From assembly GCA_964409555.1 (NCBI GenBank), contig CAYPDP010000004.1, positions 1 to 55,568 of the forward strand: DNA of 55,568 bases, in the 5' to 3' direction. Positions 1-19,909 of the stretch are shown here, one piece after another. The notes beneath the pieces are model-generated. The model was not told where the DNA came from. It made no database searches and was given only the letters and a program-made list of their open reading frames with translations. This DNA comes from Candidatus Woesearchaeota archaeon (GTDB lineage: Archaea; Nanobdellota; Nanobdellia; Pacearchaeales; GW2011-AR1). The translations under genes and the position numbers were made by a program. Within the stretch, counting starts at the first letter, position 1, and every line of letters starts with the position of its first letter.

Positions 1-100
1 CCATTTTTAAAAAATAAATAATCAAAATGGAAAACAAAGAAAACAGGAAATTTTCTAGCTTCCCATTTTTAAAAAATAAATAATCAAAATGGAAAACAAA
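1..100 (+). repeat. 38-bp perfect direct repeat (1-38 and 63-100) spanning the end of an upstream ORF and the start codon of the first gene
   Basis: ccatttttaaaaaataaataatcaaaatggaaaacaaa occurs twice with a 62-bp period. Confidence 0.9.
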
Positions 101-586
101 AAACTTGGAACATTATTCATCGTATTCAGTATTATATTTTTAATATTTTTATTTTATTTTAGTATGGAAATGAATAAAAAATCTGCTCAGTTAGGATGTA
201 ATTCTAATCAAGGATGTATGACTATTAAAAATTTCATGACTTTTACAAATATTGGTTTTGGATTTTTTGGATTTTTATTTGGTTTAGGATTTTATATTTT
301 ATTTTTTAATAAAACAGAAAGTGCCATATTAAATAGATTAGAAGAAGAGAAAGATAGAAAAATTGGAGAAGACAAATTTAGTATTATTCTTAATGCTTTA
401 GATTCTTATGAGAAGAAAGTAATGAAAGCAATTAAAGAACAAGATGGAATAACACAAAGTACTCTTAGACTTAGAACTGATATGTCAAAAGCAAAATTAA
501 GTTATGTTCTGCAAGAATTAGAAAAAAGAAATTTAATTAAGAGAACAAAAAAAGGAAAGACTCTTGAAATTTGGTTGAAAGTTTAA
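89..586 (+). CDS. Membrane-anchored winged-helix transcription regulator
   Basis: Two TM segments, then an HTH-like C-terminus (DGITQSTLRLRTDMSKAKLSYVLQELEKRNLIKR). Confidence 0.75.
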   Translation: MENKKLGTLFIVFSIIFLIFLFYFSMEMNKKSAQLGCNSNQGCMTIKNFMTFTNIGFGFFGFLFGLGFYILFFNKTESAILNRLEEEKDRKIGEDKFSIILNALDSYEKKVMKAIKEQDGITQSTLRLRTDMSKAKLSYVLQELEKRNLIKRTKKGKTLEIWLKV

Positions 587-671: not shown

Positions 672-1997
672 ATGAATAAAAAAGGGTTATCAAAATTAAT
701 TATAATTTTAATTGTTTTAATATTAATAGTATCTTTTTTAATTTTTATAACTTTGATTAAGGTTAAATTTCAAAAAGAAAAACAGGTAATTATTGAACAA
801 TCAAAAATTAATTCTGAAATTATAAATATTACTAATTTTTCTTTTTTTTATGTTAAAGGAAATAAAATAATAGATTTAAAAGGGAATGAGATAAAATTAA
901 GAGGATTTAATTATGATTCTTTTTATGTGATTAATAAAAAAATATATTTTGCAAAAAAGGATTTTAAAAAAGTTGATGAGAACAATATAGAAATTGCCAA
1001 ATATTTTTTTAATGAAGATGATATAAAAAACTTTAAGAATATTGGGGCGAATGTTGTTAGACTTGAAATTAGATTATGGGAAATTGAAAAAAAACCTTAT
1101 GTTTATAGTGAAGAGTCTTTAAAACAATTAGATTATACAATAAAAAAATTTGGGGAAAATGATATTTACGTTATTCTCGATTTGCATGCAGCAGGTCAAA
1201 ATACTTTAAATCATAATGATGAATATGGAAATATTTTATGGGATAATACTGATGATATTTGGAATAGAACTGTTGCTTTATGGGGAATTATTTCTGAAAG
1301 ATATAAAAATAATAATTATATAGTTGGATATGATTTAATTAATGAACCAGAGGCACCAAATAAAAGAATTCTTCATACGTTTTATCAAGATGTTATTAAT
1401 AAAATTAGAGAAAAAGATAAAAAACATATTTTATTTATTGAATTAAATTTATATAAAAAAGAAAAAATTCTTATTGGAGGAAAATATGATGATAATAATT
1501 TGGCAGTAAGTATGCATTTTTATAAACCTAATGAATTTACTACGCAGGGAATGAAAAAATCTTCTGGAAAAAAATATCCGAATACCTATAAGGGAGTTTA
1601 TTGGGATAAAAATGAAATTAATAAATATTTTGATAAATTTCTTAATTTTGAAGAGTTAAAAGGAAAACCGATGTTTATTGGAGAATTTGGAGCAAATGTT
1701 GGTGATGGTGGAAAAGATTCACTTAATTGGATCGATGATGTTACAACTATTTTAAATAAAAAAGGATTGCATTATACTTTTTTTAGTTATAAACTTTCTT
1801 TTACTCCTTCATTAGGATATTACTATGCTGATAAACAATTAGAATTTAAAATAACTGAATTGGTAAATAATTTATTAAGAGGTTTAGATTTTAAAGATGT
1901 AACTGAGAATAAAAAAAGATATTTTCTTACAAATAATTATAATCATTCTCAAGAATTAAATCAAATATTAGAGAGAAAGTTTAAATTTTCCTCATAA
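672..1997 (+). CDS. Membrane-anchored glycoside hydrolase family 5
   Basis: N-terminal TM; GANVVRL, ILDLH, YDLINEP (acid/base Glu), IGEFG (nucleophile Glu). Confidence 0.85.
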   Translation: MNKKGLSKLIIILIVLILIVSFLIFITLIKVKFQKEKQVIIEQSKINSEIINITNFSFFYVKGNKIIDLKGNEIKLRGFNYDSFYVINKKIYFAKKDFKKVDENNIEIAKYFFNEDDIKNFKNIGANVVRLEIRLWEIEKKPYVYSEESLKQLDYTIKKFGENDIYVILDLHAAGQNTLNHNDEYGNILWDNTDDIWNRTVALWGIISERYKNNNYIVGYDLINEPEAPNKRILHTFYQDVINKIREKDKKHILFIELNLYKKEKILIGGKYDDNNLAVSMHFYKPNEFTTQGMKKSSGKKYPNTYKGVYWDKNEINKYFDKFLNFEELKGKPMFIGEFGANVGDGGKDSLNWIDDVTTILNKKGLHYTFFSYKLSFTPSLGYYYADKQLEFKITELVNNLLRGLDFKDVTENKKRYFLTNNYNHSQELNQILERKFKFSS

Positions 1998-2108: not shown

Positions 2109-2831
2109 ATGACAGAAAAAGAATTTACAATAAAATTAAAGAAATCAGATATTTGGAAAATTGGAACAGTAATTTTTGGAGTATTATTTATTATAAGTTT
2201 ATTTTTAATATTTAATAATTCTAGAAATATTGTTAATAATAAAATTATTGCTCCTAATAATCCTATTAATAATAATCCTCAAGTAAATAAAATTCAATTA
2301 AAGGTTAGAGCCGAAGATCCTATCTTAGGAAATAAAGATGCACCAATTAGTATAGTAGAATTTTCTGATTTTCAGTGTCCTTTCTGTGGAAGAGTATTTC
2401 AAGGTGCTATAACTGATTTCAAAAATAGTGATTATTTTAAAACAGGAGAAGTAAATCTTATTTACAAAAATTTTCCTTTAAATAGTATTCACCAGTATGC
2501 TGAAAAAGCTGCAGAAGCAGGAGAGTGTGCTAATAAACAAGGAAAATTCTGGGAATATCATAATAAATTATTTGAAAATCAAAATGCTTTAGATATTAAT
2601 AATTTGAAATCTTATGCATCTCAAATAAATCTTGATACAGATAAATTCAATAATTGTCTTGATAATAATGAAGCTCTAGATGATATTAAAAATGATGTTT
2701 CAGATGCTCTTTCAGCAGGAGCAAGAGGAACACCTTATTTTGTAATATTAAATAAAAAAACTGGAAAAACTCAAGTAGTTTCAGGAGCAGTTCCTTGGAC
2801 AAATTTTGAATCAGCAATTCAATCATTATAA
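2109..2831 (+). CDS. dsbA: DsbA-family thiol-disulfide oxidoreductase, membrane-anchored
   Basis: IVEFSDFQCPFC, cis-Pro motif GTPYF, N-terminal TM. Confidence 0.9.
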   Translation: MTEKEFTIKLKKSDIWKIGTVIFGVLFIISLFLIFNNSRNIVNNKIIAPNNPINNNPQVNKIQLKVRAEDPILGNKDAPISIVEFSDFQCPFCGRVFQGAITDFKNSDYFKTGEVNLIYKNFPLNSIHQYAEKAAEAGECANKQGKFWEYHNKLFENQNALDINNLKSYASQINLDTDKFNNCLDNNEALDDIKNDVSDALSAGARGTPYFVILNKKTGKTQVVSGAVPWTNFESAIQSL

Positions 2832-2880: not shown

Positions 2881-3558
2881 ATGAAAAATAAAAAAGAAAG
2901 TTTAGAAATTAATAATAAAATTATAGTTCTACTAGGAATATTTGTTTTACTTATAATTTTTAATCAGTGGCAAATTTCAGGAATAAATAATTCTTTTACA
3001 TCTGGTGTTGAGAAATTATCTCCTAATCAAATTTATGATATTAAATCAACGTCTCAATCTGTTGCAACACTTTTTCCAGTAGATCAAATAAAAAATGACC
3101 AAGATGCTATTAATATGATGATTTCTCAAGGAACTCCAGATTATGGAAAATCCATGGGAATTAGTTTTGATGACCCTGTTGGGGCGTTAGATCTTCTTTC
3201 TAAAAATTATAATACAATTAAAAATGATGTAAAGAAAAATAATCCTGAAGTCTGGAAACGTTATTTAAATTTAGCTACTAAACCTGTTGGAATAAGTTGT
3301 GAATTTTGTTGTGGTGTTGGTCCTATAGGAATAACAAAGAAAGGTGATTTAACTTGTGGATGTTCACATAATCCAGCAATGCAATCAATAACATTATTAT
3401 TGATGAAAGATACAAATATGAATGATGCTGAAGTATTAAAGGAGGCATTAAAATGGAAATCATTATGGTTTCCTAAAGATATGGTTAATCTTGCATTAAA
3501 AGCTTCTGGGGGAGAAATTGACGCAGGGAAACTTCCAGGAATGGTGGGAGGATGTTAA
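2881..3558 (+). CDS. Membrane-anchored Cys-rich protein ending LPGMVGGC
   Basis: N-terminal TM; CEFCCG and CGCSH motifs; terminal MVGGC. Confidence 0.85.
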   Translation: MKNKKESLEINNKIIVLLGIFVLLIIFNQWQISGINNSFTSGVEKLSPNQIYDIKSTSQSVATLFPVDQIKNDQDAINMMISQGTPDYGKSMGISFDDPVGALDLLSKNYNTIKNDVKKNNPEVWKRYLNLATKPVGISCEFCCGVGPIGITKKGDLTCGCSHNPAMQSITLLLMKDTNMNDAEVLKEALKWKSLWFPKDMVNLALKASGGEIDAGKLPGMVGGC

Positions 3559-3559
3559 A

Positions 3560-3796
3560 ATGACAAGTGTAAAAGTTTATTCAACGCCAACATGTCCTTG
3601 GTGTATAAAAGTAAAAGAATTTTTAATAGAGAATAAAATAAAATTTGAAGATTTAGATGTTTCAAAAAATGAGGATATTGCAAAAGAATCTGTTGAAAAA
3701 TCAGGTCAAATGGGAGTTCCAGTTATTGATGTTAATGGAAAAATTACTGTTGGATTTGATGAAGATAAATTAAAAAAGGATCTTAATATTAAATAA
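3560..3796 (+). CDS. Glutaredoxin/NrdH-like redoxin
   Basis: VYSTPTCPWC, GVPVI; start moved to ATG 3560 just after the upstream stop. Confidence 0.9.
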   Translation: MTSVKVYSTPTCPWCIKVKEFLIENKIKFEDLDVSKNEDIAKESVEKSGQMGVPVIDVNGKITVGFDEDKLKKDLNIK

Positions 3797-3813
3797 AAGG
3801 AGGTAAAATAAAG

Positions 3814-4050
3814 ATGAATATAAACAAAAATACTTTGGTTGTTGGAATTTTAGCTTTATTAATCTTAGTTGCATTTGCACAAACATTTCAATTAGTTGGA
3901 ATGAAAAATAAGATTAGTGAATTAGGGGCTGGAAAAAATATCCAAACAGGAAGTTTAAGCAAATCAACTAGTTCAGCAAGTAGTTCTAGTTCAGGTGGAG
4001 GAGTTCCAACAAATTTGCAGAATCTTCCAGGAATGGTAGGTGGTTGTTAA
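3814..4050 (+). CDS. Small membrane-anchored protein with Ser/Gly linker ending LPGMVGGC
   Basis: GGAGG SD upstream; TM, low-complexity linker, terminal MVGGC. Confidence 0.85.
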   Translation: MNINKNTLVVGILALLILVAFAQTFQLVGMKNKISELGAGKNIQTGSLSKSTSSASSSSSGGGVPTNLQNLPGMVGGC

Positions 4051-4097: not shown

Positions 4098-5243
4098 ATG
4101 AAAAAAAATTTAGAAAAAACAAAAAAAAAATTAGAAGAAGGATTTAAAAAATTAGATAAAAAAATACAAAAGAATTCTTCAAAGATAATGATAATTTTAA
4201 TTGCGATTTTATTAGGAATTTTTATATTAAATTCTATTTTTTCATTTAGTTCAAGTTCTGAATTAAATAATAAAATTACAAAAATTGTAGAATCAAATAA
4301 ACCTGTAGAAATTAAAATAACTTCTATAACTTGTGAGGGATGTTCAGATATTAATTCAGTAGTTGATTTGGTTAAAAAACAAAATGTAAAAATATTAAAA
4401 GAATCTTCAATAGATTCAAATTCAGATACTGCTAAAGAATTAATTAGTAAATATAATATTAAAAAACTTCCAACTATTTTAATTTATGGAAATTCTGAAG
4501 AATTGAATTCTGATAAAGTAAATTTTGATAATTTTTATTCAGTAAATGATGCTTTTGTATTGGAAGAAACTAAAGCTCCTTATTTAGATGTTTTAAATAA
4601 TGAAATTAAAGGAAAAGTTAAATTAATTGAAGTTATAGATTCTTCTTGTAAAGATTGTCTTTCTTTATCTTCAGTTGGAACAAGTTTTGGAAAAGCAGGA
4701 GTTTCAATAGATGATTGGAAAAAAGTAGAATATAATTCAGAAGAAGGTAAAAATATAATAAATAAATATGGGATTAAAGAAATTCCTTCAATGTTAATAT
4801 CTAAAGATATAGATTATTATTCTGATGTTAAAGTTAGTTTAGATAAACTTGGTTTAGAAGAAAAACAAGGATTTTATAAATTACATTCAACTATTCCACC
4901 TTATAGAGATTTAGTAAAGAACAAAATTGTAGGACTTGTTGATTTGATAATGTTGACAGATAAATCTTGTACTGATTGTTATGATGTTGAATTAAATAAG
5001 AAAATATTATCTAGACTTGGAATTGTAACCAGTAGTGAAAATATTTATGATGTTAGTTCTGAAAAAGGAAAAGAATTGATTTCAAAATATGATGTTAAAA
5101 AAGTTCCAATAATTATTTTATCTCCTGAAGCAAAAGAATATGTAAATTTTGTTAATGCTTGGAAACAAGTTGGAAATATTTCAAAAGATGGATGGTTTAT
5201 AATGAGGTCTCCAGAAGGACTTGGAAAAATTAAGAATATATAA
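4098..5243 (+). CDS. Exported protein with three thioredoxin-like CxxC repeats
   Basis: CEGC, CKDC, CTDC, each followed by a K-x-[LI]-I-x-KY-x-[IV]-K-x-[LIV]-P segment. Confidence 0.7.
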   Translation: MKKNLEKTKKKLEEGFKKLDKKIQKNSSKIMIILIAILLGIFILNSIFSFSSSSELNNKITKIVESNKPVEIKITSITCEGCSDINSVVDLVKKQNVKILKESSIDSNSDTAKELISKYNIKKLPTILIYGNSEELNSDKVNFDNFYSVNDAFVLEETKAPYLDVLNNEIKGKVKLIEVIDSSCKDCLSLSSVGTSFGKAGVSIDDWKKVEYNSEEGKNIINKYGIKEIPSMLISKDIDYYSDVKVSLDKLGLEEKQGFYKLHSTIPPYRDLVKNKIVGLVDLIMLTDKSCTDCYDVELNKKILSRLGIVTSSENIYDVSSEKGKELISKYDVKKVPIIILSPEAKEYVNFVNAWKQVGNISKDGWFIMRSPEGLGKIKNI

Positions 5244-5264: not shown

Positions 5265-5783
5265 ATGGAAATCAATAAAAAAATACTGGTAATCGGAATT
5301 GTTATTTTAATTGGAATATTTTCATTATTTACATTTAATAACTTTCAAAAGAAGATTTCTGGAAGTGTTATAACTGGAGGGGTTGTTAATATTGATAACT
5401 TAAATCCTACAATGAATCAAGCTATTGTTTATAAATCTCAAAGTTGTGGATGTTGTTCAGGATATATAAGTGAATTAGAAAAAAATGGTTTTAATGTAGA
5501 AATTGAAGCAGTAAGTTCGGATAAATTAAATTCAATAAAAGAAAGTCATAATATTCCAAAGGATATGCAAAGCTGTCATACTGTTATTATTGGAAATTAT
5601 TTTATAGAAGGCCATGTTCCTCTTGAAGCTGTAAATAAATTACTAACTGAAAAGCCTGATGTTGATGGAATTACTCTTCCTGGAATGGATTCAGGAACTC
5701 CAGGAATGCCTGGACAAAAAACAGGAGAATGGATTATTTATTCTTTGAAAGATGGAAAATCAACAGAATTTATGAGAATTTAA
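5265..5783 (+). CDS. DUF411/CopG-like metal-binding protein
   Basis: YKSQSCGCC, SCHT, IEGHVP, LPGMDSGTPGM. Confidence 0.8.
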   Translation: MEINKKILVIGIVILIGIFSLFTFNNFQKKISGSVITGGVVNIDNLNPTMNQAIVYKSQSCGCCSGYISELEKNGFNVEIEAVSSDKLNSIKESHNIPKDMQSCHTVIIGNYFIEGHVPLEAVNKLLTEKPDVDGITLPGMDSGTPGMPGQKTGEWIIYSLKDGKSTEFMRI

Positions 5784-5784
5784 A

Positions 5785-6210
5785 ATGAATAAAAATTTAA
5801 GAATTTATTCAGCAATTGTATTTGTTATGATAGGAATTATTTTATTTTCATTTTCTTTTTATTTACATAATTTTAAAGATAATGCTGAAAATAAAATTGA
5901 AAAAATAATTTCATTAAAAGATAATGTTAAACAAGATTTAATTAATAATGGAAAATATAAATGTTGTTTAGAAAAACCTTGTGATTATTGTTTAATAAAT
6001 CATAAAGAATGTGATTGTTTGGAAGAGATTGTTACAGGGAAACATCCTTGTGGTGAATGTATTGGTGAAATATTAGAAGGTCATGGAAATAGGTTCTTAA
6101 CAAAATATTTTTCAAAAGCACTTTCTGAAAAAATTGGTGAAAATCATCATGAACATTTAAAAGAGATTATTTCAGAAAAATATTCTGTAAGTATTGAGAG
6201 TCAATTATAA
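5785..6210 (+). CDS. Membrane-anchored Cys-rich hypothetical protein
   Basis: TM followed by CC-x4-CxxC-x6-CxC-x10-CxxC. Confidence 0.7.
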   Translation: MNKNLRIYSAIVFVMIGIILFSFSFYLHNFKDNAENKIEKIISLKDNVKQDLINNGKYKCCLEKPCDYCLINHKECDCLEEIVTGKHPCGECIGEILEGHGNRFLTKYFSKALSEKIGENHHEHLKEIISEKYSVSIESQL

Positions 6211-6211: not shown

Positions 6212-6820
6212 ATGAAAGGATTAGTTTATAATTTAAGTGGAAGACTTTATGATTTTTTAGACGAACCTTTTGAGAAAAAAAGATACACAAAAATAAGAAA
6301 AAAAATGTTATCTAATATTAAAGGAACTGTTTTAGAAGTAGGGTGTGGAACTGGAAGAAACTTCACTCATTATTCTGCAAATGTTACTGTCACAGCTATT
6401 GATAAATCTAAAAATATGTTAGAAATTGCTAAAAAAAGAATGGAATTTAGCAAAGCGAAAATACATTTAAGAAAAGAAAATATTACTAAGATAAATTCTT
6501 TAGATAATACCTATGACAATATTGTAGCTACATTTGTATTGTGTGTTTTGCCAAAAAAAATAGAAGAACAAGCATTAAATGAATTAATAAGAGTAGCCAA
6601 GCTAGAAGCAACATTTTATTTTTTAGAATATGTATATTCTAAGAACAAATTAAGAAAGTTTACTATGATAATAACTTCATTTATTCCAAAAATTCTTTAC
6701 GGAATAAGATTTAATTCAACATCATCTTTAATTCAGAAAAATAAATTTTTAGAAATAGTTAAACAAGAGTTCTTACATGATGATGTTATAAGACTTATTG
6801 TTGCAAAGAAAATAAAATGA
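6212..6820 (+). CDS. Class I SAM-dependent methyltransferase
   Basis: VLEVGCGTG, YDNIVATFVLC; ATG 6212 preferred over TTG 6194. Confidence 0.85.
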   Translation: MKGLVYNLSGRLYDFLDEPFEKKRYTKIRKKMLSNIKGTVLEVGCGTGRNFTHYSANVTVTAIDKSKNMLEIAKKRMEFSKAKIHLRKENITKINSLDNTYDNIVATFVLCVLPKKIEEQALNELIRVAKLEATFYFLEYVYSKNKLRKFTMIITSFIPKILYGIRFNSTSSLIQKNKFLEIVKQEFLHDDVIRLIVAKKIK

Positions 6821-7206
6821 ATCTTAATAAAAAAATACTTGTAATTGGAATTGTTATCTTAATTGGAATATTTTTATTTTTTACATTTTTTAAATCAAAT
6901 AACCAAGAAAAAGTTCAATTAACTGGGAATGTGAAAGAATTTACAATAAAAGCATTTCAATTTGGTTATGACCCAAGTATAATAAGAGTTAATTTAGGAG
7001 ATAAAGTCAAGATAACTGCTTTTAGTGAAGATGTCTCTCATGGATTAAATATACCTGATTTTGGGGTAAATATGTTCTTATCAGATGACTCTACACCCCA
7101 AACTGTAGAATTTATTGCAAATAAAAAAGGAACTTTCACATTTTATTGTTCTGTTTTCTGTGGAAGTGGTCATAGTAGTATGAAAGGAGAATTAATTGTA
7201 AGTTAA
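6817..7206 (+). CDS. Membrane-anchored cupredoxin with CuA-type ligand set
   Basis: DVSHG...FYCSVFCGSGHSSM. Confidence 0.85.
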   Translation: MNLNKKILVIGIVILIGIFLFFTFFKSNNQEKVQLTGNVKEFTIKAFQFGYDPSIIRVNLGDKVKITAFSEDVSHGLNIPDFGVNMFLSDDSTPQTVEFIANKKGTFTFYCSVFCGSGHSSMKGELIVS

Positions 7207-8178
7207 ATGATTAATAAAAACATTCTTAATAAAGCAGTATTAATTTGTGGTGTCCTTATATTTTTAATTATTGGATTCTCTTTTATTGTTAATGCTCTGA
7301 ATATTCCTTCAAATATTCAGAAAATTACAGATTATAACAATGGACAAGCTAATTTTTATTTTAGTAATCTTAGTTTTATTATTGCTTTTCTTGCAGGAAT
7401 ATTAGGTATATTAACTCCTTGTAGTTTAGTCATACTTCCTGCTTTTTTCGCTTATTCGTTTAAAGGGAAAAAAGATATTTCAAAAATGACTTTTTCTTTT
7501 TTTCTAGGATTTATGCCTGTTTTTGTAGTTTTTGGCTTAATTGCAACTTTCTTAGGCAAGAGTATAGCAACCTTTCAACAAAGTAATAGTTTTTTTGTTA
7601 TAATTGCAGGAATATTGACTATATTTCTTGGATTAATGGTTTTATTTGGAAAGGGTTTTTCAGGAATTACTTTAAATAAAAATAATAATAAAAGTGCTTT
7701 TGGAATATTCATATTTGGAATTTTGTTTGCTTTAGGATTTACTGTCTGTATGGGGCCTATTTTAGTAGGAATATTATTAATTGCAGGAGTTCTACAGAAT
7801 TATTTTTATGCTGGAATTTTAATGTTGTTCTATTCTCTTGGATTGTTTGTTCCTTTATTTTTAATGTCAATCTTTTTTGACAAATATAATTTTATAGGAT
7901 TTATGTCAAAAATAAATAAAAAGCTCGGTTTTTCTCTAACTAATGTTATAAGTGGAATTTTATTAATCTCATTAGGTCTTATTTTTATTATATTTAAAGG
8001 AACAACCAGAGTTACAGGCAATCTTGGTCTTGGAAGCTGGACTATTATTATTTATTCTATTCAAGAAAAAATTGTTAATGTCCAATTTATTAATGTAATT
8101 GGTTTTTTTGTTTTAATAGGATTTGTGTATTTAGTTTGGAGAGTCTTAAAAAAAGAAATAAAATTGGAAAAAAAGTAA
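7207..8178 (+). CDS. ccdA: CcdA/DsbD transmembrane disulfide-exchange protein
   Basis: LTPCSLVILP and FTVCMGP Cys pair in a polytopic membrane protein. Confidence 0.85.
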   Translation: MINKNILNKAVLICGVLIFLIIGFSFIVNALNIPSNIQKITDYNNGQANFYFSNLSFIIAFLAGILGILTPCSLVILPAFFAYSFKGKKDISKMTFSFFLGFMPVFVVFGLIATFLGKSIATFQQSNSFFVIIAGILTIFLGLMVLFGKGFSGITLNKNNNKSAFGIFIFGILFALGFTVCMGPILVGILLIAGVLQNYFYAGILMLFYSLGLFVPLFLMSIFFDKYNFIGFMSKINKKLGFSLTNVISGILLISLGLIFIIFKGTTRVTGNLGLGSWTIIIYSIQEKIVNVQFINVIGFFVLIGFVYLVWRVLKKEIKLEKK

Positions 8179-8763
8179 ATGAAAACAAAACCTAGATGTG
8201 AAGTTTGCAATAAAGATTTTAAAAATAAAGAAGGATTAGATATGCATAATTCTTCAAAACATTCTCAATCTGAGGGTAAATCTTTGAAGATAAATTATAA
8301 AAAAATTAGAAATTGGGGAATTTTTATTATAATTATTGGTTTGATTCTTTTTTTAATTGCATTTCCAATATATAAATCAATAAAAGAAAATTCTAAATTA
8401 AATTTTGATGCTCCTAAAGGGGCAATTCATTGGCACCCTCAAATTACAATAATTATCGATGGGGTAAAACAAATTATTCCTGGAGGAATAGGGTTAGGAA
8501 GTGGAGGACATCGTCCAACCCATACTCATGAAGCAGATGGAACAATTCATATGGAAAATAATAATCCCTCTAAAAAAACAGTCACTCTCGGTTATTTTTT
8601 TGATACTTGGGGTAAAAAATTTAATAATGAATGTATATTTAATTATTGTATTGATAAAGGTGAATTAAAAATGAGTGTTAATGGAAAAGAAAATTTTGAT
8701 TTTGATAATTATTTTATGCAAAATGGAGATAAAATAGTTATTGAATATACTTCCTTAAAATAG
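8179..8763 (+). CDS. C2H2 zinc-finger, TM and His-rich exported domain protein
   Basis: CEVC...HNSSKH; TM; HWH, HRPTHTHE...IHME. Confidence 0.7.
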   Translation: MKTKPRCEVCNKDFKNKEGLDMHNSSKHSQSEGKSLKINYKKIRNWGIFIIIIGLILFLIAFPIYKSIKENSKLNFDAPKGAIHWHPQITIIIDGVKQIIPGGIGLGSGGHRPTHTHEADGTIHMENNNPSKKTVTLGYFFDTWGKKFNNECIFNYCIDKGELKMSVNGKENFDFDNYFMQNGDKIVIEYTSLK

Positions 8764-8766: not shown

Positions 8767-10050
8767 ATGAAAAAAATTAAAAATAAAATAGCTAATAAGA
8801 AAATTTTCAATAAAAGAAGATATTATATTATTATATTCATCTTTCTAATATTATTAGTGTCTATAATTTATTTAAATAAAAATTCATTAAAAAAACAAGA
8901 ATCTATAGAAAATTTTAATATATTAAATGCTTTATCTTTGAAGAAGCTTGTTTTTAATCTTCCAAATATGGATAAGCAGATGTGCGAGACATTTCCAGGA
9001 ATAGTTTTATCAACACTTGAAGAACAAAAAGGAGTAGTTGATGCCTCATTTAAATATGAAAATCATGTTTTCACAGTTTATTATGTTCCTGAATTCATAT
9101 CTAAAGAAGAAATTCTTAATAATGAAGTTTATGCTTGGGTTGGAACAAAATTTATCAGTGAAGAGGATTTGAACATATCAAATATTGAAAAAATTTATAA
9201 AAATCGTGACAATAATAATGAACTTAAAATGCCTAAGAATCATATGTCAAATATAGATAATATTAAAGATTCTAAGATGATGAATTTGCAGGATTTTCCT
9301 AAATTAGTCAGTGCTGAATGGTTATCTAAAAATAATGAAAATGTTAAAATTATAGAAATAGGGTCAGTTGAGGAATATAATAAAGGTCATGAAAAGGGTG
9401 CAATAAATATTAATATAGAAGAAATTCGAACTACTCGTGATGGGGTGGCAAAACAAATTTTAAGTAAAGAAGATTTTGAGATCCTTATGAAAAATAAAGG
9501 AATATCTAATAATGACAGAATAGTTATTTATTCTAGCAAAAGTTTAACTCATGCTTCAAGACTTTACCTGACATTCAAATATTACGGTCATAAAAATGTT
9601 GCAATGCTTGATGGTGGAAAATATTTAATAGATAAAAAATCTATTTCAATAATGGTATCTCCTAAAAATTTTACAAATTATACTGCAACTATTGATAAAA
9701 ATATGATTGTTAATTCAGATTATATTTTAAATAAAATTGGAAATCCAAAAACAATTATTTTGGATGTGAGAAGCAAGCAGGAATTTGATCAGGGTCATAT
9801 ATCTGGAGCAATTAATATTGACTGGAATAATTTTATAAATGCTGATGGGACTCTAAAAAACAACAATGAACTAAAATTTTTGTTAAAAGAGATTGATTCA
9901 GGCAAGGAAATTATTGTTTATTGTGTATCTGGAACAAGGGCAAGTTATGCATGGTTTGTGCTGTCAGAGATACAAGGGTATTTAGATATAAAATTATTTG
10001 ACGGTTCAATGATTGAATGGAGTTACAAACAATTGCCGTTAGAAAAATAA
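8767..10050 (+). CDS. Membrane-anchored tandem rhodanese sulfurtransferase with HMA-like N-domain
   Basis: GHEKGA, MLDGG, LDVRS...GHISGA, active loop YCVSGTRA, LFDGSMIEW. Confidence 0.8.
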   Translation: MKKIKNKIANKKIFNKRRYYIIIFIFLILLVSIIYLNKNSLKKQESIENFNILNALSLKKLVFNLPNMDKQMCETFPGIVLSTLEEQKGVVDASFKYENHVFTVYYVPEFISKEEILNNEVYAWVGTKFISEEDLNISNIEKIYKNRDNNNELKMPKNHMSNIDNIKDSKMMNLQDFPKLVSAEWLSKNNENVKIIEIGSVEEYNKGHEKGAININIEEIRTTRDGVAKQILSKEDFEILMKNKGISNNDRIVIYSSKSLTHASRLYLTFKYYGHKNVAMLDGGKYLIDKKSISIMVSPKNFTNYTATIDKNMIVNSDYILNKIGNPKTIILDVRSKQEFDQGHISGAINIDWNNFINADGTLKNNNELKFLLKEIDSGKEIIVYCVSGTRASYAWFVLSEIQGYLDIKLFDGSMIEWSYKQLPLEK

Positions 10051-10051: not shown

Positions 10052-10324
10052 ATGGATGAAATAAAAAAACTTAAAGAGAGTATGGATAATCATGCTGAAA
10101 AAGAAGGAATTAAATTAAATCCTAATGAGAATATTGTTAATGTTATATTTAATGGTTTGTTAAAAAATAAAGAGAAAAAGGGTTCAATGTTTTGTCCTTG
10201 CAGAATTCCGACTGGAGATGAAGAAGAGGATAAAAAAATAGTTTGTCCTTGTGTTTATCATCTTGAGGAAATAAAAAAAGATGGTCATTGTAAATGTAAT
10301 TTATTTGTAAAATTAAATAGTTAG
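10052..10324 (+). CDS. Ferredoxin:thioredoxin reductase catalytic subunit
   Basis: FCPCR...VCPC...GHCKC. Confidence 0.9.
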   Translation: MDEIKKLKESMDNHAEKEGIKLNPNENIVNVIFNGLLKNKEKKGSMFCPCRIPTGDEEEDKKIVCPCVYHLEEIKKDGHCKCNLFVKLNS

Positions 10325-10393: not shown

Positions 10394-11227
10394 ATGAAAA
10401 TATTTATTGATAGTGCTGATATTGAAGAAATTAAAGAGGCTGTAAGTTATGGAATTTTAGATGGAGTTACAACTAATCCTAGTTTGATAAAAAAAGCTAT
10501 TGAAAATCAGAAAAAAAGAGGAAGAAAAATTGATATGAATTCTTATATAAAAAATATTTTAAAAATTTGTAAAGGAAAATCTGTTAGTTTAGAAGTTCTT
10601 GGTAGAAATTATGAGGAAATGATTAAAGAGGGAAGAAGTTTATATAAAAAATTTAATTCTGTTGCAAAAAATGTTTATATAAAAATTCCAATTAATACTT
10701 GTATGAAGGAGAATTGTGTTGATAGTTATGATGGAATTAAAGCAATAAAAACTCTTTCTAAAGAAGGAATACCTATTAATTGTACATTAATATTTACACC
10801 AGAACAAGCATTGTTAGCAGCAAAAGCAGGAGCAAAATTTGTAAGTCCTTTTGTCGGTAGAATTGATGATTATATAAGAAATTCAAATAAAATAAAATTT
10901 GATAAAAAAGATTATTTTCCAGAAAATGGTTTAAAAAATGACAAAAAAATTTTAGAAGATAATGGAATATTATCTGGAGTGGATTTAGTCAAAAAATGTG
11001 TAGATATTTTAAAATTATATAATTTTAAAACAGAAGTTTTAGCAGCGAGTATAAGAAATAGTAGACAAGTAAGAGAGGTTGCTTTAGTTGGAGCAAATAT
11101 TTCAACACTCCCTTTAGAAATAATTAAAAATTCTTTAACACATTATAAAACAATTGAAGGTATGAAGAAATTTACAAAAGATATTATTCCAGAATATTCT
11201 AAGATTGTAGGATATGAGGAAAAATAA
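10394..11227 (+). CDS. tal: Transaldolase (TalC/FSA family)
   Basis: GVTTNPSLI, VSLEV (Glu), IKIP, VSPFVGR (Phe; transaldolase rather than FSA pattern). Confidence 0.9.
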   Translation: MKIFIDSADIEEIKEAVSYGILDGVTTNPSLIKKAIENQKKRGRKIDMNSYIKNILKICKGKSVSLEVLGRNYEEMIKEGRSLYKKFNSVAKNVYIKIPINTCMKENCVDSYDGIKAIKTLSKEGIPINCTLIFTPEQALLAAKAGAKFVSPFVGRIDDYIRNSNKIKFDKKDYFPENGLKNDKKILEDNGILSGVDLVKKCVDILKLYNFKTEVLAASIRNSRQVREVALVGANISTLPLEIIKNSLTHYKTIEGMKKFTKDIIPEYSKIVGYEEK

Positions 11228-12124
11228 ATGAAAATTGATAAAAAAAATATTCCTAATCTTGATGAAATTGTATTAAGTGCAATTAATCTTTTTATAAAAG
11301 ATAAATTACCTAAAATAAATATTGGTAAATATAAACGTCTTTTAGTTGTTGGAAGCGGGAATGCTGCAGTAACAGGTAAAATAATTTTTGAAAAAAAAGA
11401 TGCTATTTTTGCTGATGAAAGTAATTATAAAGAAAAATTAAAAGCAATTAAAGAAGTTGATAAAGCTGTTTTAATATCTGCATCTGGAGGAAAACATGCT
11501 CCGATTATTGCAAAAGAATTGAAAAAAAGAAAAATAAATACGATTCTTATTACAAATACTAAAAATTCTTTAGCAGAAAAATATGTTAATAAAACTTATA
11601 TTTTTCCTAAACAAACTGAACCTTATACTTATAATACTTCAACTTACATGGGAAGTATAATTTCATATACTCAAGAAAATCCAAAAGAAATTTTAGATTA
11701 TTTAAAAAATATCAAAAAGAAGATTCCAAAGAATTTTAATAAATATGATTCGTATTATATAATTGTTCCTAATGAATTTGATTTGATAAGAGAAATGTTT
11801 CTTACAAAATTTGATGAACTTTTTGGGCCAAAAATATCTGGAAGAGTTTTTACAATTGAACAAACAAAACATGCTAAAACTTTAGTTCCTTCAGATAAAG
11901 AATTGTTTATAAGTTTTGGTTATAAAAATAATATCTTTGGTAAGAATAGATTAAATATCAGTCTCCCTTCAAAATTCAGTTATGCAACACTTCTTGCTGT
12001 AGGATATTATATAATAGGTCATATTCAAAAACAAAATAAACCTTATTTTAAAGAAAATATTGAGAATTATGCAAAAGAAGCATCAAAAATGTTTAAACAA
12101 AAAATAAATCCAATAGTTGAATAA
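11228..12124 (+). CDS. SIS-domain sugar-phosphate isomerase, probable glucose-6-phosphate isomerase (PGI/PMI-like)
   Basis: VVGSGNA, LISASGG, EQTKHA; position inside the PPP operon. Confidence 0.55.
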   Translation: MKIDKKNIPNLDEIVLSAINLFIKDKLPKINIGKYKRLLVVGSGNAAVTGKIIFEKKDAIFADESNYKEKLKAIKEVDKAVLISASGGKHAPIIAKELKKRKINTILITNTKNSLAEKYVNKTYIFPKQTEPYTYNTSTYMGSIISYTQENPKEILDYLKNIKKKIPKNFNKYDSYYIIVPNEFDLIREMFLTKFDELFGPKISGRVFTIEQTKHAKTLVPSDKELFISFGYKNNIFGKNRLNISLPSKFSYATLLAVGYYIIGHIQKQNKPYFKENIENYAKEASKMFKQKINPIVE

Positions 12125-13491
12125 TGAAAAAAGATACAACTTTTATAATACTTGGGGCAACAGGAGATTTAACAAAAAGAAAAATAATTCCTGCAATTTA
12201 TAATTTATTAAAAGATAAAAAGATAAAAAAATTTGTAATTATTGGAGTTGCACGTTCAGATATTGATATTCAGAAAATACTTTTAGAATCAAAAAAATTA
12301 ATTAAAAATTTAGATAAAAAAACATGGGAGAAAATTGTTAATTCATCATATTATAGACCTTTAGATTTTTATAATAAAAATGATTATAAAAAATTTGAAG
12401 AGTTTGTTATTGAAATTGAAAAAAAACATAATTTAAATGGTAGAAGAATATTTTATTTAGCAACTTTACCCCAACATTTTAAGAATATAACTTTTAATTT
12501 ATCAAAACTTCAAATATCTAAAGAAAATGAAAATAAAGATATTTCTGTTGTTTATGAAAAACCTTTTGGAGATGATTTAAAATCAGCAAGAGAAATTAAT
12601 AAGAATATCAATAAAATTTTTAAAGAAAAACAGATTTATAGGATTGACCATTATCTTGGAAAAAAATTGGTGGGAAATATTGCTTTAATTAGATTTACAA
12701 ATCGTATTTTTGAGCCATTATGGAATAAAGAAAATATTAGTTCTGTTGAAATTATTTTAAGCGAGAATTTCGGAATTAAAGAGAGAGGTAATTTTTATGA
12801 TAAATATGGTGCACTTAAAGATGTTGTTCAGAATCATGCTTTTCAATTACTTTCCTTGATAGCAATGGAATCTCCAAAGATGATTTCAGGAGAATATTTA
12901 AGAAATGAGAAAAAAAAAGTTCTTGAAAAAGTAAAAATTAAAGATGTAATTTTGGGACAATATGAAGGGTATAAAAAAGAAAAAGGGGTGGAAAAAAATT
13001 CTGTAACAGAAACTTTTGCTGGGCTTCATTTGCAAATTAATAATCCTCGTTGGAAAGGAGTTCCATTTTATATAAAAGCAGGTAAAAATCTAGATAAAAA
13101 TAATGTGAGTATCCATATTAAATTTAAAAAAACAAATTGTCTTCTTTCTAAAAATTGTTCAATGGATGAAAATGAATTTATAATAAAAATACAACCTGAA
13201 AGAAAATTTGAATTAAAAATAAATTCTAAAGTTCAGGAATCTAATTTTGAAGTATCACCTATAAATATGGAATTTTGTTATACTTGTTTGTATGGTCCAA
13301 ATACACCTGAAGCTTATGAAGTTTTATTAGAGGAAATTATAAAAAGAGATCAATCTTTCTTTGTAAGAAATGATGAGATTGAAGAAGCGTGGAAAATTAT
13401 TGATCAAATAGAAAAACAAAATAATAAAATTAATATTTATAAAAAAGGGAGTGAAGGTCCTAAAGAATTAAAAAATTGGAATATAAATTAA
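12124..13491 (+). CDS. zwf: Glucose-6-phosphate dehydrogenase, bacterial type
   Basis: GATGDL, GVAR, EKPFG, RIDHYLGK, DVVQNH. Confidence 0.95.
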   Translation: MKKDTTFIILGATGDLTKRKIIPAIYNLLKDKKIKKFVIIGVARSDIDIQKILLESKKLIKNLDKKTWEKIVNSSYYRPLDFYNKNDYKKFEEFVIEIEKKHNLNGRRIFYLATLPQHFKNITFNLSKLQISKENENKDISVVYEKPFGDDLKSAREINKNINKIFKEKQIYRIDHYLGKKLVGNIALIRFTNRIFEPLWNKENISSVEIILSENFGIKERGNFYDKYGALKDVVQNHAFQLLSLIAMESPKMISGEYLRNEKKKVLEKVKIKDVILGQYEGYKKEKGVEKNSVTETFAGLHLQINNPRWKGVPFYIKAGKNLDKNNVSIHIKFKKTNCLLSKNCSMDENEFIIKIQPERKFELKINSKVQESNFEVSPINMEFCYTCLYGPNTPEAYEVLLEEIIKRDQSFFVRNDEIEEAWKIIDQIEKQNNKINIYKKGSEGPKELKNWNIN

Positions 13492-13495
13492 AAAA

Positions 13496-14395
13496 ATGAA
13501 AATTGGATTTATTGGATTAGGTAGAATGGGAAATAATATGGTTTTAAATCTTTTAGAAAATAATCATAAAATTGTAGTAAATAATAGATCTCCAGAACCT
13601 ATAAAAAAATTAGCAAAAAAAGGTGCAATACCTGCTTTTAATTTAAAAGAGCTTTTTGAAAATCTTCCAAAACAAAAAATAATTTGGTTAATGATTCCAG
13701 CAGGAAAACCAGTAGACGATATTCTTAAAAAAATTACTCCTTTCATGAAAAAAGGAGATATTATAATTGATGGGGGAAATTCTTTTTTTAAAGATTCAAT
13801 TAAAAGATATAAGAAATTCAAAAAAAATAAAATTGGTTATTTAGATTGTGGAACTTCAGGAGGAATGGAAGGTGCAAGACATGGTGCATGTATGATGATT
13901 GGAGGAGATAAGAATGTATTTGAGAAAGTTAAAATTTTGTTTAAAGATATGACTGTAAAAAATGGTTATGGATATATGGGGAAAGCTGGTTCAGGTCATT
14001 TTGTAAAAGGAATTCATAATGCTATTGAATACGGAATGATGGGTGCATTAAACGAGGGATTTGAAGCAATTAAAAAACAAAAAAAATATTTTGGAACTGA
14101 TTTAAAGGAAGTATCAAAAGTTTATGATAATGGGAGTATTATTGAAGGAAGACTTTCACACTGGCTTTTTGATGCTATGAGTAAACCTAATTATTTTAAT
14201 AGTATTTCTTGCCAGGTTCCAAAAGGAGAAACTGAAAATGAAATGGAGTTTTTAGAAAAAATGTCTTATATGCCAATACTTCATCAAGCAAGATTAATGA
14301 GAGTTAATTCGAGAAAAAATAAATTTTGTGGAAGAGTAATATCTGCATTAAGAAATGAATTTGGAGGTCATAAGGTTATTAAGAAAAATAAATAA
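13496..14395 (+). CDS. gnd: 6-phosphogluconate dehydrogenase, decarboxylating, short type
   Basis: GLGRMG, NRS, IDGGNS, SGG, KGIHNAIEY. Confidence 0.92.
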   Translation: MKIGFIGLGRMGNNMVLNLLENNHKIVVNNRSPEPIKKLAKKGAIPAFNLKELFENLPKQKIIWLMIPAGKPVDDILKKITPFMKKGDIIIDGGNSFFKDSIKRYKKFKKNKIGYLDCGTSGGMEGARHGACMMIGGDKNVFEKVKILFKDMTVKNGYGYMGKAGSGHFVKGIHNAIEYGMMGALNEGFEAIKKQKKYFGTDLKEVSKVYDNGSIIEGRLSHWLFDAMSKPNYFNSISCQVPKGETENEMEFLEKMSYMPILHQARLMRVNSRKNKFCGRVISALRNEFGGHKVIKKNK

Positions 14396-14396
14396 A

Positions 14397-14846: not shown

Positions 14847-14867
14847 TTTATATTTAATTATTATAAT

Positions 14868-15491: not shown

Positions 15492-15492
15492 A

Positions 15493-19866: not shown

Positions 19867-19909
19867 TTAAAATAAACTTTAATAATATTAGATAAATGGA
19901 GACAAATAA

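What the first reader, a model, noticed from the sequence alone, without database searches (positions are those of the whole stretch)
2881..4050. Two unrelated membrane proteins share an exact C-terminal LPGMVGGC, flanking a glutaredoxin
Seen: the 225-aa and 78-aa ORFs both end LPGMVGGC-stop (3532-3558, 4024-4050). The DNA differs at three positions, all synonymous, which points to selection on the peptide. The 78-aa protein is only anchor + Ser/Gly linker + motif. Order is dsbA - MVGGC protein (CEFCC, CGC) - glutaredoxin - MVGGC peptide - triple-CxxC protein. Inference: a tethered swinging-arm cysteine that shuttles electrons, sulfur or Cu(I) (Met+Cys) at the cell surface, or a C-terminal modification/sorting tag. 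I know of no characterised system with this motif.
Basis: partly seen in the sequence, partly recalled or inferred. Interest (0 to 1): 0.78.

Follow-up and report, generated by a model that had tools for sequence, protein, structure and literature searches.

The report
Paired cysteine-tailed envelope proteins of DPANN archaea
Two neighbouring membrane-anchored proteins of a tiny DPANN archaeon end in the same Met-Val-Gly-Gly-Cys tail; they form a widespread, undescribed gene pair linked to thioredoxin and copper-export genes, and the tail is most likely a movable cysteine arm on the cell surface.

Summary
ORFs 2881-3558 (225 aa) and 3814-4050 (78 aa) both end in LPGMVGGC-stop, and their DNA differs at three synonymous sites. 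They are the only two ORFs in this 760-kb genome that end in GGC.

This is not a local oddity. The 225-aa protein belongs to an unannotated family found in 456 species genomes, and the best 80 matches are DPANN archaea. It occurs in 23% of a 401-genome phylum sample. The predicted fold is confident, all-alpha, and has no solved relative. The family has an invariant Cys5-His core (CExCCG...CGCxH) and a near-invariant [M/Q]VGGC-COOH end.

A small "arm-only" protein (anchor, Ser-rich linker, same tail) follows it in about 85% of loci. The two tails co-vary within a genome.

The commonest neighbours are a triple-thioredoxin protein (77%) and CcdA (53%). Genomes with the module are enriched for DsbA, VKOR and Cu(I)-type P1B ATPases, which often lie within 12 kb.

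My best reading is a tethered thiolate arm that relays Cu(I) or copper-induced disulfides and is kept reduced by thioredoxins. The chemistry is untested. Met is not an obligatory ligand, because Gln replaces it.

The parts
2881..3558 (+). Large MVGGC protein (225 aa, subfamily A). It has an N-terminal signal anchor, an extracytoplasmic all-alpha domain with an invariant Cys5-His core, and a tail ending in LPGMVGGC-COOH.
   Evidence: ORF. Family of 484 or more hits, with all of the top 120 ending [LVIMA]Px[MQ]VGGC. Invariant residues include C140, E141, C143, C144, G145, C159, C161, H163, V222, G223, G224 and C225. AF2 pLDDT 91.5, pTM 0.81. No PDB fold or sequence relative. No Pfam or NCBIfam hit.
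2920..2961 (+). Signal-anchor helix of the large protein (residues about 14-27). It follows a Lys-rich N-terminus and is followed by the conserved FNQxQI motif.
   Evidence: Sequence. AF2 helix 12-40. N28 is nearly invariant and the consensus is LFNQxQI.
3298..3369 (+). Cys-rich core C140-E-F-C143-C144-G ... C159-G-C161-S-H163, lying in a loop/hairpin between helices.
   Evidence: Invariant columns in alignments A1 and A2, which include subfamily B at about 30% identity. Secondary structure.
3532..3558 (+). C-terminal tail LPGMVGGC plus stop codon of the large protein.
   Evidence: Tail pLDDT is about 80, so the model places it in an ordered position.
3560..3796 (+). Cytoplasmic glutaredoxin-like protein (YruB-type, CPWC). 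It is a lineage-specific insert between the two tagged genes.
   Evidence: PF00462 at 5.8e-18; TIGR02196 at 6e-25, just below cut-off. Found in this position only in close relatives (L009/L018).
3814..4050 (+). Small 'arm-only' MVGGC protein (78 aa). It consists of an anchor with an A-Q-x-x-Q-L motif, a Ser-rich linker, the PTNLQN box and an LPGMVGGC-COOH tail.
   Evidence: ORF with SD-like GGAGGT upstream. Homologues and syntenic equivalents. 91 of 92 have a TM helix and no other Cys after it.
4098..5243 (+). Membrane-anchored triple-thioredoxin-fold protein (CEGC, CKDC, CTDC). It is the most constant neighbour of the pair.
   Evidence: Thioredoxin-family hits. Present within 6 genes in 72 of 94 loci, usually directly after the small gene.
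7207..8178 (+). CcdA/DsbD-type transmembrane electron transporter.
   Evidence: PF02683 at 1.4e-11. Within 6 genes in 50 of 94 loci. Not associated at whole-genome level in close relatives.
2109..2831 (+). DsbA-like exported thioredoxin-fold protein.
   Evidence: PF13462 at 1.2e-24, PF01323 at 1.2e-15. DsbA is enriched in genomes that carry the module, 9/12 versus 3/29.
5265..5783 (+). DUF411/CopG-like exported protein with a CGCC motif.
   Evidence: PF04214 at 8e-23. Neighbour in 13 of 94 loci.
5785..6210 (+). Anchored Cys/His-rich 141-aa protein of unknown family.
   Evidence: No family hit. Recurs in 6 of 94 loci.
6817..7206 (+). Anchored CuA-type cupredoxin (CxxxCxxxHxxM).
   Evidence: PF13473 and PF00116; NosZ/CoxB C-terminal matches. 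Cupredoxin neighbour in 5 of 94 loci.
8179..8763 (+). C2H2 zinc-finger, TM and His-rich exported domain protein.
   Evidence: Neighbour cluster in 23 of 94 loci.
8767..10050 (+). Anchored double-rhodanese protein.
   Evidence: PF00581 at 3.4e-33.
10052..10324 (+). Ferredoxin:thioredoxin-reductase catalytic-chain-like protein. It is a possible cytoplasmic electron source for Grx/CcdA.
   Evidence: PF02943 at 2e-22.
89..586 (+). Two-TM protein with an extracytoplasmic Cys pair fused to a MarR-like winged helix. It is a candidate regulator.
   Evidence: PF12802, PF01047 and DUF7343. Neighbour cluster in 18 of 94 loci.

Best explanation
The two ORFs are the constant pair of an undescribed envelope module of DPANN archaea.

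Partner 1 is a membrane-anchored, extracytoplasmic all-alpha domain of a new fold. It carries an invariant Cys5-His site and a short tail ending in [M/Q]-V-G-G-Cys-COOH. Partner 2 is the same anchor and the same tail joined only by a flexible linker of about 40 residues.

Shown here: both tails are under strong purifying selection, and they co-vary within genomes. This means a common site reads them.

Inferred: that site is the Cys5-His pocket of partner 1, the CxxC sites of the downstream triple-thioredoxin protein, or both. The terminal thiolate works as a movable arm at the outer face of the membrane. It binds a thiophilic cargo and hands it on.

The cargo is most likely Cu(I) leaving CopA-type pumps, or the aberrant disulfides that copper causes. 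The arm and the Cys-rich site would be kept reduced by the triple thioredoxin. In this window that protein would be fed by CcdA, with a cytoplasmic glutaredoxin and an FTR-like protein upstream of it.

In short, I read it as a copper and thiol-stress relay for an oxidising cell envelope.
For: Conservation: 484 word-index hits and 327 50%-identity representatives. The terminal Cys is present in essentially all full-length members.

Pairing: the MVGGC-stop DNA pattern occurs in 12 of 41 relatives, nearly always 2-3 times on one strand within 150-520 nt. The reversed-pattern control gives 0. 80 of 95 loci have exactly two tagged ORFs.

Tail covariation in the same locus: position -4 gives (M,M) 77, (Q,Q) 5, (Q,M) 2, (M,Q) 0. 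The LP versus SGG prefixes also track the subfamily.

Arm anatomy: one TM helix, a Ser/Gly/Ala/Thr-rich linker of about 40 residues, and no other Cys.

Reductive partners: triple-Trx in 72 of 94 loci and CcdA in 50 of 94.

Copper link:
- P1B ATPase in 11/12 versus 8/29 relatives (p=3e-4) and in 82/91 versus 171/310 phylum genomes (p=1e-10).
- In 15 genomes the ATPase lies within 12.5 kb of the module.
- 8 of 13 neighbouring ATPases carry the CPC + NX6YNX4P + MXXSS Cu(I) signature.
- DUF411/CopG, CuA cupredoxin, HMA-fused membrane protein, ArsR and BlaI/M56 are neighbours.
- Subfamily-B small proteins carry an ETYEQMMARMHPEQ Met/His motif and CC or His-rich cytoplasmic N-termini.

Oxidising envelope: DsbA in 9/12 versus 3/29 and VKOR in 8/12 versus 4/29.
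Against: - No biochemical evidence of any kind.
It rests only on a tail pLDDT of about 80.
- Met at -4 is replaced by Gln in about 12% of members and by Trp in a few, so Met is not a conserved soft-metal ligand.
- CcdA is not enriched at genome level in close relatives (4/12 versus 6/29, not significant). Subfamily-B genomes often lack it.
- This window's own small protein has no Met/His motif.
- The co-occurrence statistics are not corrected for phylogeny. P1B ATPases are common anyway, at 55% of genomes without the module.
- Tail-less paralogues of the large protein exist.
Confidence: 0.5

Rival explanations
1. A pure thiol-disulfide machine with no metal cargo. The Cys-rich all-alpha domain is a new extracytoplasmic oxidoreductase. 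It could be a disulfide generator acting on the PDI-like triple thioredoxin (Ero1/Erv2-like logic), or a terminal reductase (CcmH/Msr/Prx-like logic). The tail Cys would be its shuttle or resolving cysteine, and the small protein a trans-acting shuttle.
For: The constant partners are redox proteins, not metal proteins: triple-Trx 77% and CcdA 53%. The design is a helical domain with a CxxC(C) motif and a Cys on a flexible segment. There is strong genome-level association with DsbA and VKOR. Gln can replace Met at -4. In this window a cytoplasmic Grx and an FTR-like gene lie in the same gene row.
Against: It co-occurs with VKOR instead of replacing it, so it is not the missing oxidase. No cofactor-binding family or fold match was found. 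This reading does not explain the copper-pump linkage, or the Met/His and His-rich motifs of many small proteins.
Confidence: 0.25
2. A sulfur carrier in the manner of SoxY or DsrC. The terminal Cys would carry persulfide, thiosulfonate or polysulfide between envelope enzymes such as rhodaneses and DoxX-type proteins.
For: A Gly-Gly-Cys end on a flexible arm resembles the SoxY GGCGG arm (own knowledge; PMC5336275 for the arm concept). A rhodanese gene lies in this window, with rhodanese-cupredoxin fusions elsewhere. DoxX is a neighbour in 13 of 94 loci.
Against: No SoxY, SoxZ, SoxAX, SoxB or Dsr family hits on the tagged proteins. Rhodanese and DoxX are minority neighbours. The hosts are small-genome DPANN in which no sulfur-oxidation pathway was seen in the loci examined.
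Confidence: 0.07
3. The tail is a processing, attachment or lipidation signal. It would be a C-terminal Cys modified to anchor the proteins to lipid or S-layer, not a reactive arm.
For: The signature sits at the extreme C-terminus, is invariant, and has a recognisable upstream LP or GG context. Both proteins are at the membrane surface.
Against: There are only 2-4 tagged ORFs per genome, always in this one locus and always with the large family. No transpeptidase, protease or prenyl/acyl-transferase recurs as a neighbour. The proteins already have N-terminal anchors, some with long His-rich cytoplasmic extensions that argue against signal-peptide cleavage.
Confidence: 0.07
4. The small ORF is the precursor of a secreted or modified peptide (RiPP-like). 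It would be cleaved after the VQA-like site, and the large protein would be its maturation enzyme.
For: The small gene is always next to a Cys-rich protein. Many small proteins have a V-Q-A motif at the end of the hydrophobic segment that could be a signal-peptidase site.
Against: The putative enzyme carries the same tail itself. The region between anchor and tail is low-complexity and poorly conserved. No radical-SAM, YcaO, lanthionine or protease/exporter genes recur nearby.
Confidence: 0.03

Closest known systems
SoxY carrier arm of the bacterial Sox thiosulfate-oxidation system (with the SoxV/CcdA-like protein and SoxW/SoxS thioredoxins)
   Same: A single reactive Cys sits next to Gly-Gly at the flexible C-terminal end of an exported protein. 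It is serviced by a CcdA-type transporter and thioredoxins. (The arm concept is in PMC5336275; the GGCGG motif and SoxV/W/S are from my own knowledge.)
   Different: SoxY is a beta-sandwich protein with partner SoxZ, and its Cys is followed by GG. Here the Cys is the last residue and the carriers are a new all-alpha domain and a domain-less linker protein. There is no SoxY Pfam hit, no Sox enzymes nearby, and the context is copper rather than sulfur oxidation.
Envelope reductive pathways for copper tolerance: ScsB-ScsC/ScsD and DsbD-DsbC feeding CueP (Salmonella, Caulobacter, Proteus)
   Same: A DsbD/CcdA-type transporter feeds membrane or periplasmic thioredoxin-fold proteins, which keep a Cys-containing copper-handling protein reduced. 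These systems are linked to copper stress (PMC3322552 and PMC4546943 abstracts).
   Different: There is no homology between the tagged proteins and ScsA/C/D or CueP. There is no C-terminal Cys arm in those systems. Here the thioredoxin is a triple-domain anchored protein.
CupA/CopA of Streptococcus pneumoniae (membrane-anchored extracellular-face Cu(I) chaperone working with the Cu pump; own knowledge)
   Same: A single-pass anchored Cu(I) handler is encoded beside a P1B-1 ATPase. Chaperone and partner share the same binding module, which parallels the shared tail here.
   Different: CupA is a cupredoxin-like fold with a Cys/Met site. No sequence or fold relation was found.
CopG (DUF411), a periplasmic Cys-bridged copper-cluster protein (own knowledge)
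   Same: It is an exported small Cys-motif protein of copper islands. A DUF411 gene lies 1.2 kb downstream in this window and in 13 of 94 loci.
   Different: The tagged proteins do not match PF04214. The fold class is different: all-alpha versus thioredoxin-like.
C-terminal redox arms of enzymes: Erv2 CGC tail, thioredoxin reductase GCUG, MerA C-terminal Cys pair, DsrC arm (own knowledge)
   Same: A flexible C-terminal segment carries the reactive thiol or selenol that shuttles between a buried site and an external partner.
   Different: Those arms carry two redox residues and belong to flavoenzymes or DsrC. Here there is one Cys, no flavin domain, an extracytoplasmic location, and a separate arm-only protein.
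CcmH of cytochrome c maturation (helical, anchored, LRCxxC)
   Same: It is a small anchored helical protein with a CxxC motif downstream of a CcdA/DsbD-thioredoxin chain.
   Different: There is no PF03918 hit. No CcmH chain was found by PDB profile search or Foldseek. No cytochrome c system was seen in the loci.

Membership tests
SoxY (PF13501) | Sequence or profile match to the SoxY beta-sandwich domain | tested here: not met
   No Pfam or NCBIfam hit for either tagged protein. The large protein is predicted all-alpha. The small one is a low-complexity linker.
SoxY (PF13501) | C-terminal GGCGG motif with the carrier Cys | tested here: inconclusive
   The tail is [M/Q]VGGC-COOH. Gly-Gly-Cys is shared, but Cys is the terminal residue. 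Only rare variants end in GGCG.
SoxY (PF13501) | Partner SoxZ and Sox enzymes encoded nearby | tested here: not met
   None among the recurrent neighbour clusters of 94 loci.
CcmH/NrfF (PF03918) | Profile match, LRCxxC motif, three-helix bundle | tested here: not met
   No Pfam hit. PDB profile search E >= 0.77 to an unrelated protein. Foldseek best E=6.
CopG / DUF411 (PF04214) | Profile match with the CxCC motif in a thioredoxin-like fold | tested here: not met
   PF04214 hits the neighbouring gene 5265-5783 (8e-23) but not the tagged proteins.
C-terminal sorting signals (PGF-CTERM/archaeosortase, LPXTG/sortase type) | A signature followed by a TM helix and basic tail, many cargo proteins per genome, and a dedicated sortase | tested here: not met
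   The motif is the very end of the protein with no TM after it. There are 2-4 carriers per genome, all in one locus. No sortase-like neighbour.
Disulfide-generating enzymes (DsbB, VKOR, Erv/ALR, Ero1) | Homology or fold match, and a cofactor (quinone or FAD) site next to CxxC | tested here: not met
   No family or fold match. The module co-occurs with VKOR instead of replacing it. Cofactor binding is not testable here.
CcdA-dependent extracytoplasmic reductive pathway (works-like claim) | CcdA/DsbD transporter plus exported thioredoxin-fold partner encoded with the substrate | tested here: met
   In this window CcdA is at 7207-8178 and triple-Trx at 4098-5243. Across loci, triple-Trx is in 72 of 94 and CcdA in 50 of 94. 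Caveat: there is no genome-level CcdA enrichment in close relatives.
Copper-homeostasis island (works-like claim) | Physical and genomic linkage to Cu(I)-type P1B-1 ATPase and other copper proteins | tested here: met
   In the own genome the P1B-1 ATPase is on another contig (C3), but DUF411 and a CuA cupredoxin lie within 3.7 kb.
Copper-binding by the tagged proteins themselves | Measured Cu(I) affinity and stoichiometry that depend on the terminal Cys | not testable with these tools
   Needs purified protein.

The most novel reading that the evidence does not exclude
[M/Q]VGGC-COOH is a new kind of protein-borne carrier arm. DPANN archaea encode dedicated 'arm-only' proteins (anchor, linker, tail). 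Their terminal thiolate plugs into the Cys5-His pocket of a new-fold exported domain that carries the same arm in cis. Together with a surface triple thioredoxin, this would form a split, membrane-tethered relay that moves Cu(I) (or disulfide equivalents) between the copper pump exit, a Cys-rich sink and the reducing system. It would be functionally analogous to SoxY or DsrC carriers but evolutionarily unrelated to them.
Probability: 0.4. Interest if true: 0.85.

Novelty: new variant of a known kind. Interest (0 to 1): 0.7.

Why it matters
DPANN archaea are ultra-small, mostly uncultured symbionts whose envelope biology is almost unknown. This is a conserved module found in about a quarter of sampled genomes of the phylum. 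It is built from a confidently predicted fold with no solved relative and an invariant terminal cysteine, and nothing about it appears in the family databases or in the literature searched.

If the arm-carrier reading is right, it adds a new and very simple solution, a bare tethered peptide arm, to the short list of protein-borne carrier cysteines (SoxY, DsrC). It would also show how cells without a periplasmic glutathione system or classical Cus/CueO machinery cope with copper and thiol stress at the surface.

It also gives a clean, testable target. Both proteins are small, and the key residue is obvious.

Tried and rejected
- Known families: Pfam and NCBIfam give nothing for either tagged protein.
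- Literature: full-text searches for MVGGC, QVGGC, GGC-CTERM and related strings return only irrelevant papers.
- Fold search: Foldseek of the 91.5-pLDDT model against PDB gives a best E of 6. An HMM profile against PDB sequences gives E=0.77 to an unrelated protein.
- Missing-oxidase idea (the module replaces VKOR/DsbB): rejected, because VKOR is enriched, not depleted, in genomes with the module.
- Selenocysteine variants: in-frame TGA codons reported by the genome search turned out to be read-through past the real stops of tail-less paralogues. They are not Sec codons at Cys positions.
- Pocket residue co-varying with the M/Q switch at -4: no clean column was found.
- Fusion partners: the recurrent N-terminal 4-TM domain with an intramembrane GCP[ST]CG motif was modelled (pLDDT 70) and has no PDB fold match or Pfam hit. 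It remains an unidentified candidate conduit. An FKBP fusion occurs once.
- Model coordinates are not exposed by the tools. I could therefore not measure whether the tail Cys contacts the Cys-rich loop.
- Presence in CPR/Patescibacteria, claimed in earlier notes, could not be confirmed. One locus is labelled only 'bacterium' (L025).
Full report
**Observation**

The window encodes, on the + strand, a 225-aa ORF (2881-3558) and a 78-aa ORF (3814-4050). Both end in LPGMVGGC followed by TAA. The last eight codons differ at three positions (GTG/GTA, GGA/GGT, GGA/GGT), all synonymous.

The genome holding the window has 760 kb, 57 contigs and 25% G+C. These are the only two ORFs in it that end in GGC. 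Among 1008 ORFs of at least 60 aa, only one other pair shares an 8-residue C-terminus. The small ORF has a GGAGGT site 8 nt upstream.

**The large protein is a member of a big, unannotated family**

Neither tagged protein hits Pfam or NCBIfam. A word-index search found 484 relatives. All of the best 120, down to 46% identity, end in [LVIMA]-P-x-[MQ]-V-G-G-C.

An exhaustive profile search of 1.84 billion representatives found 327 clusters at E <= 1e-3. Full-length members almost always end in Cys. Position -4 is M (83), Q (26) or rarely W, and position -2 is G. Most of the exceptions look like fragments.

Invariant columns include G84, Y88, P99, R127, C140, E141, C143, C144, G145, C159, C161, H163, D182, E188, W192, K193 and the tail V222-G-G-C225.

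There are two subfamilies. Subfamily A ends in LPxMVGGC, and this window belongs to it. Subfamily B ends in ...NLASNKYRGIEQG..SGGMVGGC. The two are only 30-39% identical but keep the ISCE[FY]CCG...CGCxH core and the tail.

AlphaFold2 with a 104-sequence alignment gives a confident model (pLDDT 91.5, pTM 0.81). It shows a long N-terminal helix (the anchor), an all-alpha domain, the Cys-rich segment in a loop/hairpin, and a tail with pLDDT of about 80. Foldseek against PDB finds nothing (best E=6). A profile search of PDB sequences also finds nothing. The fold has no solved relative.

**The small protein is an arm-only partner**

Its relatives have a Lys-rich start, one hydrophobic helix ending in V-Q-A-x-Q-L, a low-complexity Ser/Gly/Ala/Thr linker, and ...LPxMVGGC.

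Of 92 small tagged ORFs collected from 95 loci:
- 91 have a TM helix.
- 91 have no other Cys after it.
- The median linker is about 40 residues, with 22% Ser.

The large protein has a similar F-N-Q-x-Q-I motif after its anchor. The two are therefore better described as a domain-containing and a domain-less version of one design than as 'unrelated'.

**The pair is the unit**

The DNA pattern for MVGGC-stop occurs in 12 of 41 related genomes. It nearly always occurs two or three times, on one strand, 150-520 nt apart. The reversed-pattern control gives zero.

In 95 loci, 80 have exactly two tagged ORFs. The small gene usually starts 2-20 nt after the large one. The glutaredoxin between them in this window is seen only in close relatives.

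The tails co-vary within a locus. At position -4 the (large, small) counts are (M,M) 77, (Q,Q) 5, (Q,M) 2 and (M,Q) 0. The LP versus SGG prefixes also follow the subfamily in both partners. On a family tree the M/Q state changed about 21 times. Both tails are therefore read by the same site.

**Distribution**

A scan of one genome per species found 456 genomes with a relative. The best 80 are Woese-, Pace-, Nano-, Micr-, Aenigmat- and Iainarchaeota records, plus a few generic labels. In an even sample of 401 high-quality genomes of the phylum, 91 genomes (23%; 83 of 281 genera) carry it, usually in one copy.

**Context**

Within six genes of the large gene in 94 loci (Pfam checks):

| Neighbour | Loci (of 94) |
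|---|---|
| Triple-thioredoxin protein | 72 |
| Small tagged cluster (main cluster; other small clusters add more) | 69 |
| CcdA | 50 |
| Zinc-finger/TM/His-rich protein | 23 |
| TM-winged-helix regulator | 18 |
| BlaI-family repressor | 16 |
| M48/M56 peptidase | 14 |
| DUF411/CopG | 13 |
| DoxX | 13 |
| P1B ATPase | 10 |

Of 13 P-type ATPases in the loci, 8 carry all three Cu(I)-type signatures: CPC, NX6YNX4P and MXXSS (the signature definition is from my own knowledge).

At genome level in 41 relatives, genomes with the module (12) compare with the rest (29) as follows:

| Feature | With module | Without module | p |
|---|---|---|---|
| DsbA | 9/12 | 3/29 | 1e-4 |
| VKOR | 8/12 | 4/29 | 0.0016 |
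| P1B ATPase | 11/12 | 8/29 | 3e-4 |
| CcdA | 4/12 | 6/29 | not significant |

In the 401-genome sample a P1B ATPase is present in 82/91 versus 171/310 genomes (odds ratio 7.4, p=1e-10). In at least 19 genomes it is on the same contig as the module, and in 15 of these within 12.5 kb. These tests are not corrected for phylogeny.

**Further copper hints in the small proteins**

- Subfamily-B small proteins carry a conserved extracytoplasmic E-[ST]-Y-[ED]-[EQ]-M-M-[AS]-R-M-H-P-[ED]-Q motif.
- They often start with a cytoplasmic M-x-C-C motif.
- Eight subfamily-A small proteins have His-rich N-termini before the anchor.
- Tail-less paralogues of the large protein exist, and a tagged small protein still follows them.

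**Fusions**

A recurrent N-terminal fusion partner is a 4-TM domain with an invariant intramembrane G-C-P-[ST]-C-G motif and a juxtamembrane Cys pair. It also occurs as a free gene. Its model is mediocre (pLDDT 70) and matches no solved fold. The three loci with the fused form show no CcdA in the DNA held. This is compatible with the domain being an alternative transmembrane conduit, but n=3.

**Interpretation**

Shown:
- A conserved two-gene unit.
- A new fold with a Cys5-His core.
- An invariant terminal Cys on a flexible tail in both partners.
- Co-evolving tails.
- Constant linkage to exported thioredoxin domains.
- Statistical and physical linkage to Cu(I) pumps and to an oxidising-envelope toolkit.

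Inferred: the terminal thiolate is a mobile arm that docks into a common site. That site would be the Cys5-His pocket, the Trx CxxC sites, or both. The arm would hand over Cu(I) or resolve copper-induced disulfides. It would be kept reduced by the triple thioredoxin, which in this window is plausibly fed by CcdA, with a cytoplasmic Grx (3560-3796) and an FTR-like protein (10052-10324).

Gln or Trp can replace Met at -4.

Rivals, each scored in its own section, are a pure redox machine, a sulfur carrier, a modification or sorting tag, and a peptide precursor. A general sorting signal is unlikely, because only 2-4 proteins per genome carry the tail and all sit in this locus. A VKOR substitute is excluded by co-occurrence.

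**Comparison with known systems**

In working principle the nearest systems are:
- the SoxY arm with its CcdA-like and thioredoxin helpers (PMC5336275);
- the copper-tolerance reductive pathways ScsB-ScsC and DsbD-DsbC-CueP (PMC3322552, PMC4546943);
- anchored Cu chaperones such as CupA (own knowledge).

Membership in any of these families was tested and not met.

**Earlier notes of this scan**

I consulted these after the main results were in hand. They describe the same module in other genomes with similar readings. I treat them as leads only. I re-derived the conservation, pairing and copper linkage independently. I could not support the CcmH-like suggestion, and I could not verify the claimed CPR members.

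**Limits**

- No access to model coordinates.
- No complex prediction.
- No experiments.

Noticed in passing
window 18536-20170: A second small metal-type cluster: an ArsR-family regulator (PF01022), a 151-aa membrane protein with an intramembrane ACC motif, a 107-aa anchored His/Cys protein, a 71-aa anchored protein with an HxGxxxxGHQGMM motif, and DUF5676. The same families flank subfamily-B MVGGC loci in other genomes.
   Followed up: partly
L096-L099 (G312, G160, G110, G342): Tail-less paralogues of the large protein (ending ...NKYRGE or ...RGIEK). Each is followed directly by a tagged small protein with a cytoplasmic M-x-(H)-C-C-G start, an extracytoplasmic GGETYEQMMARMHPEQ Met/His motif and an MVGGC end.
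   Followed up: partly
L021 12446-12955; fused in L075 7290-8693, L093 7302-8693, L095 3669-5027: An undescribed 4-TM domain with an invariant intramembrane G-C-P-[ST]-C-G motif and a juxtamembrane Cys pair. It occurs free or fused to the N-terminus of the large protein. It has no Pfam hit and no PDB fold match. No CcdA was seen in the three fused loci.
   Followed up: partly
L039, L045, L053, L056, L066, L068, L080, L087 (small tagged ORFs): His-rich N-terminal segments lie before the anchor helix, for example HKPHEHKPHEHKPHEHKPHEHK in L056. This suggests cytoplasmic metal binding by some small proteins.
   Followed up: no
L001 3492-4287 (minus strand): Two small lipoprotein-like ORFs ending in dense Cys clusters (...CCWIKGTDDVETCYCCV and ...CCCSSSDCQCC) lie next to CcdA and DoxX, beside the module.
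   Followed up: no
window 6817-7206: A stand-alone membrane-anchored CuA-type cupredoxin (CxxxCxxxHxxM) in a 760-kb DPANN genome. I did not check whether any haem-copper oxidase or NosZ partner exists.
   Followed up: no
window 10052-10324: A ferredoxin:thioredoxin reductase catalytic-chain-like gene (PF02943, 2e-22) closes the same-strand gene row that starts with DsbA.
   Followed up: partly
L031, L037, L057 and about 13 more loci: A BlaI-family repressor (PF03965) with an M48/M56 peptidase is transcribed divergently from the large gene. This is the family of regulators that includes copper-responsive CopY and PetR/PetP (own knowledge).
   Followed up: partly
window 672-1997 and 10394-17316: An anchored GH5 cellulase-family protein (PF00150). 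Further on there is a block that reads like pentose-phosphate enzymes (transaldolase, G6PD, 6PGDH, RpiB, Rpe, transketolase). The latter was not checked with a profile search.
   Followed up: no
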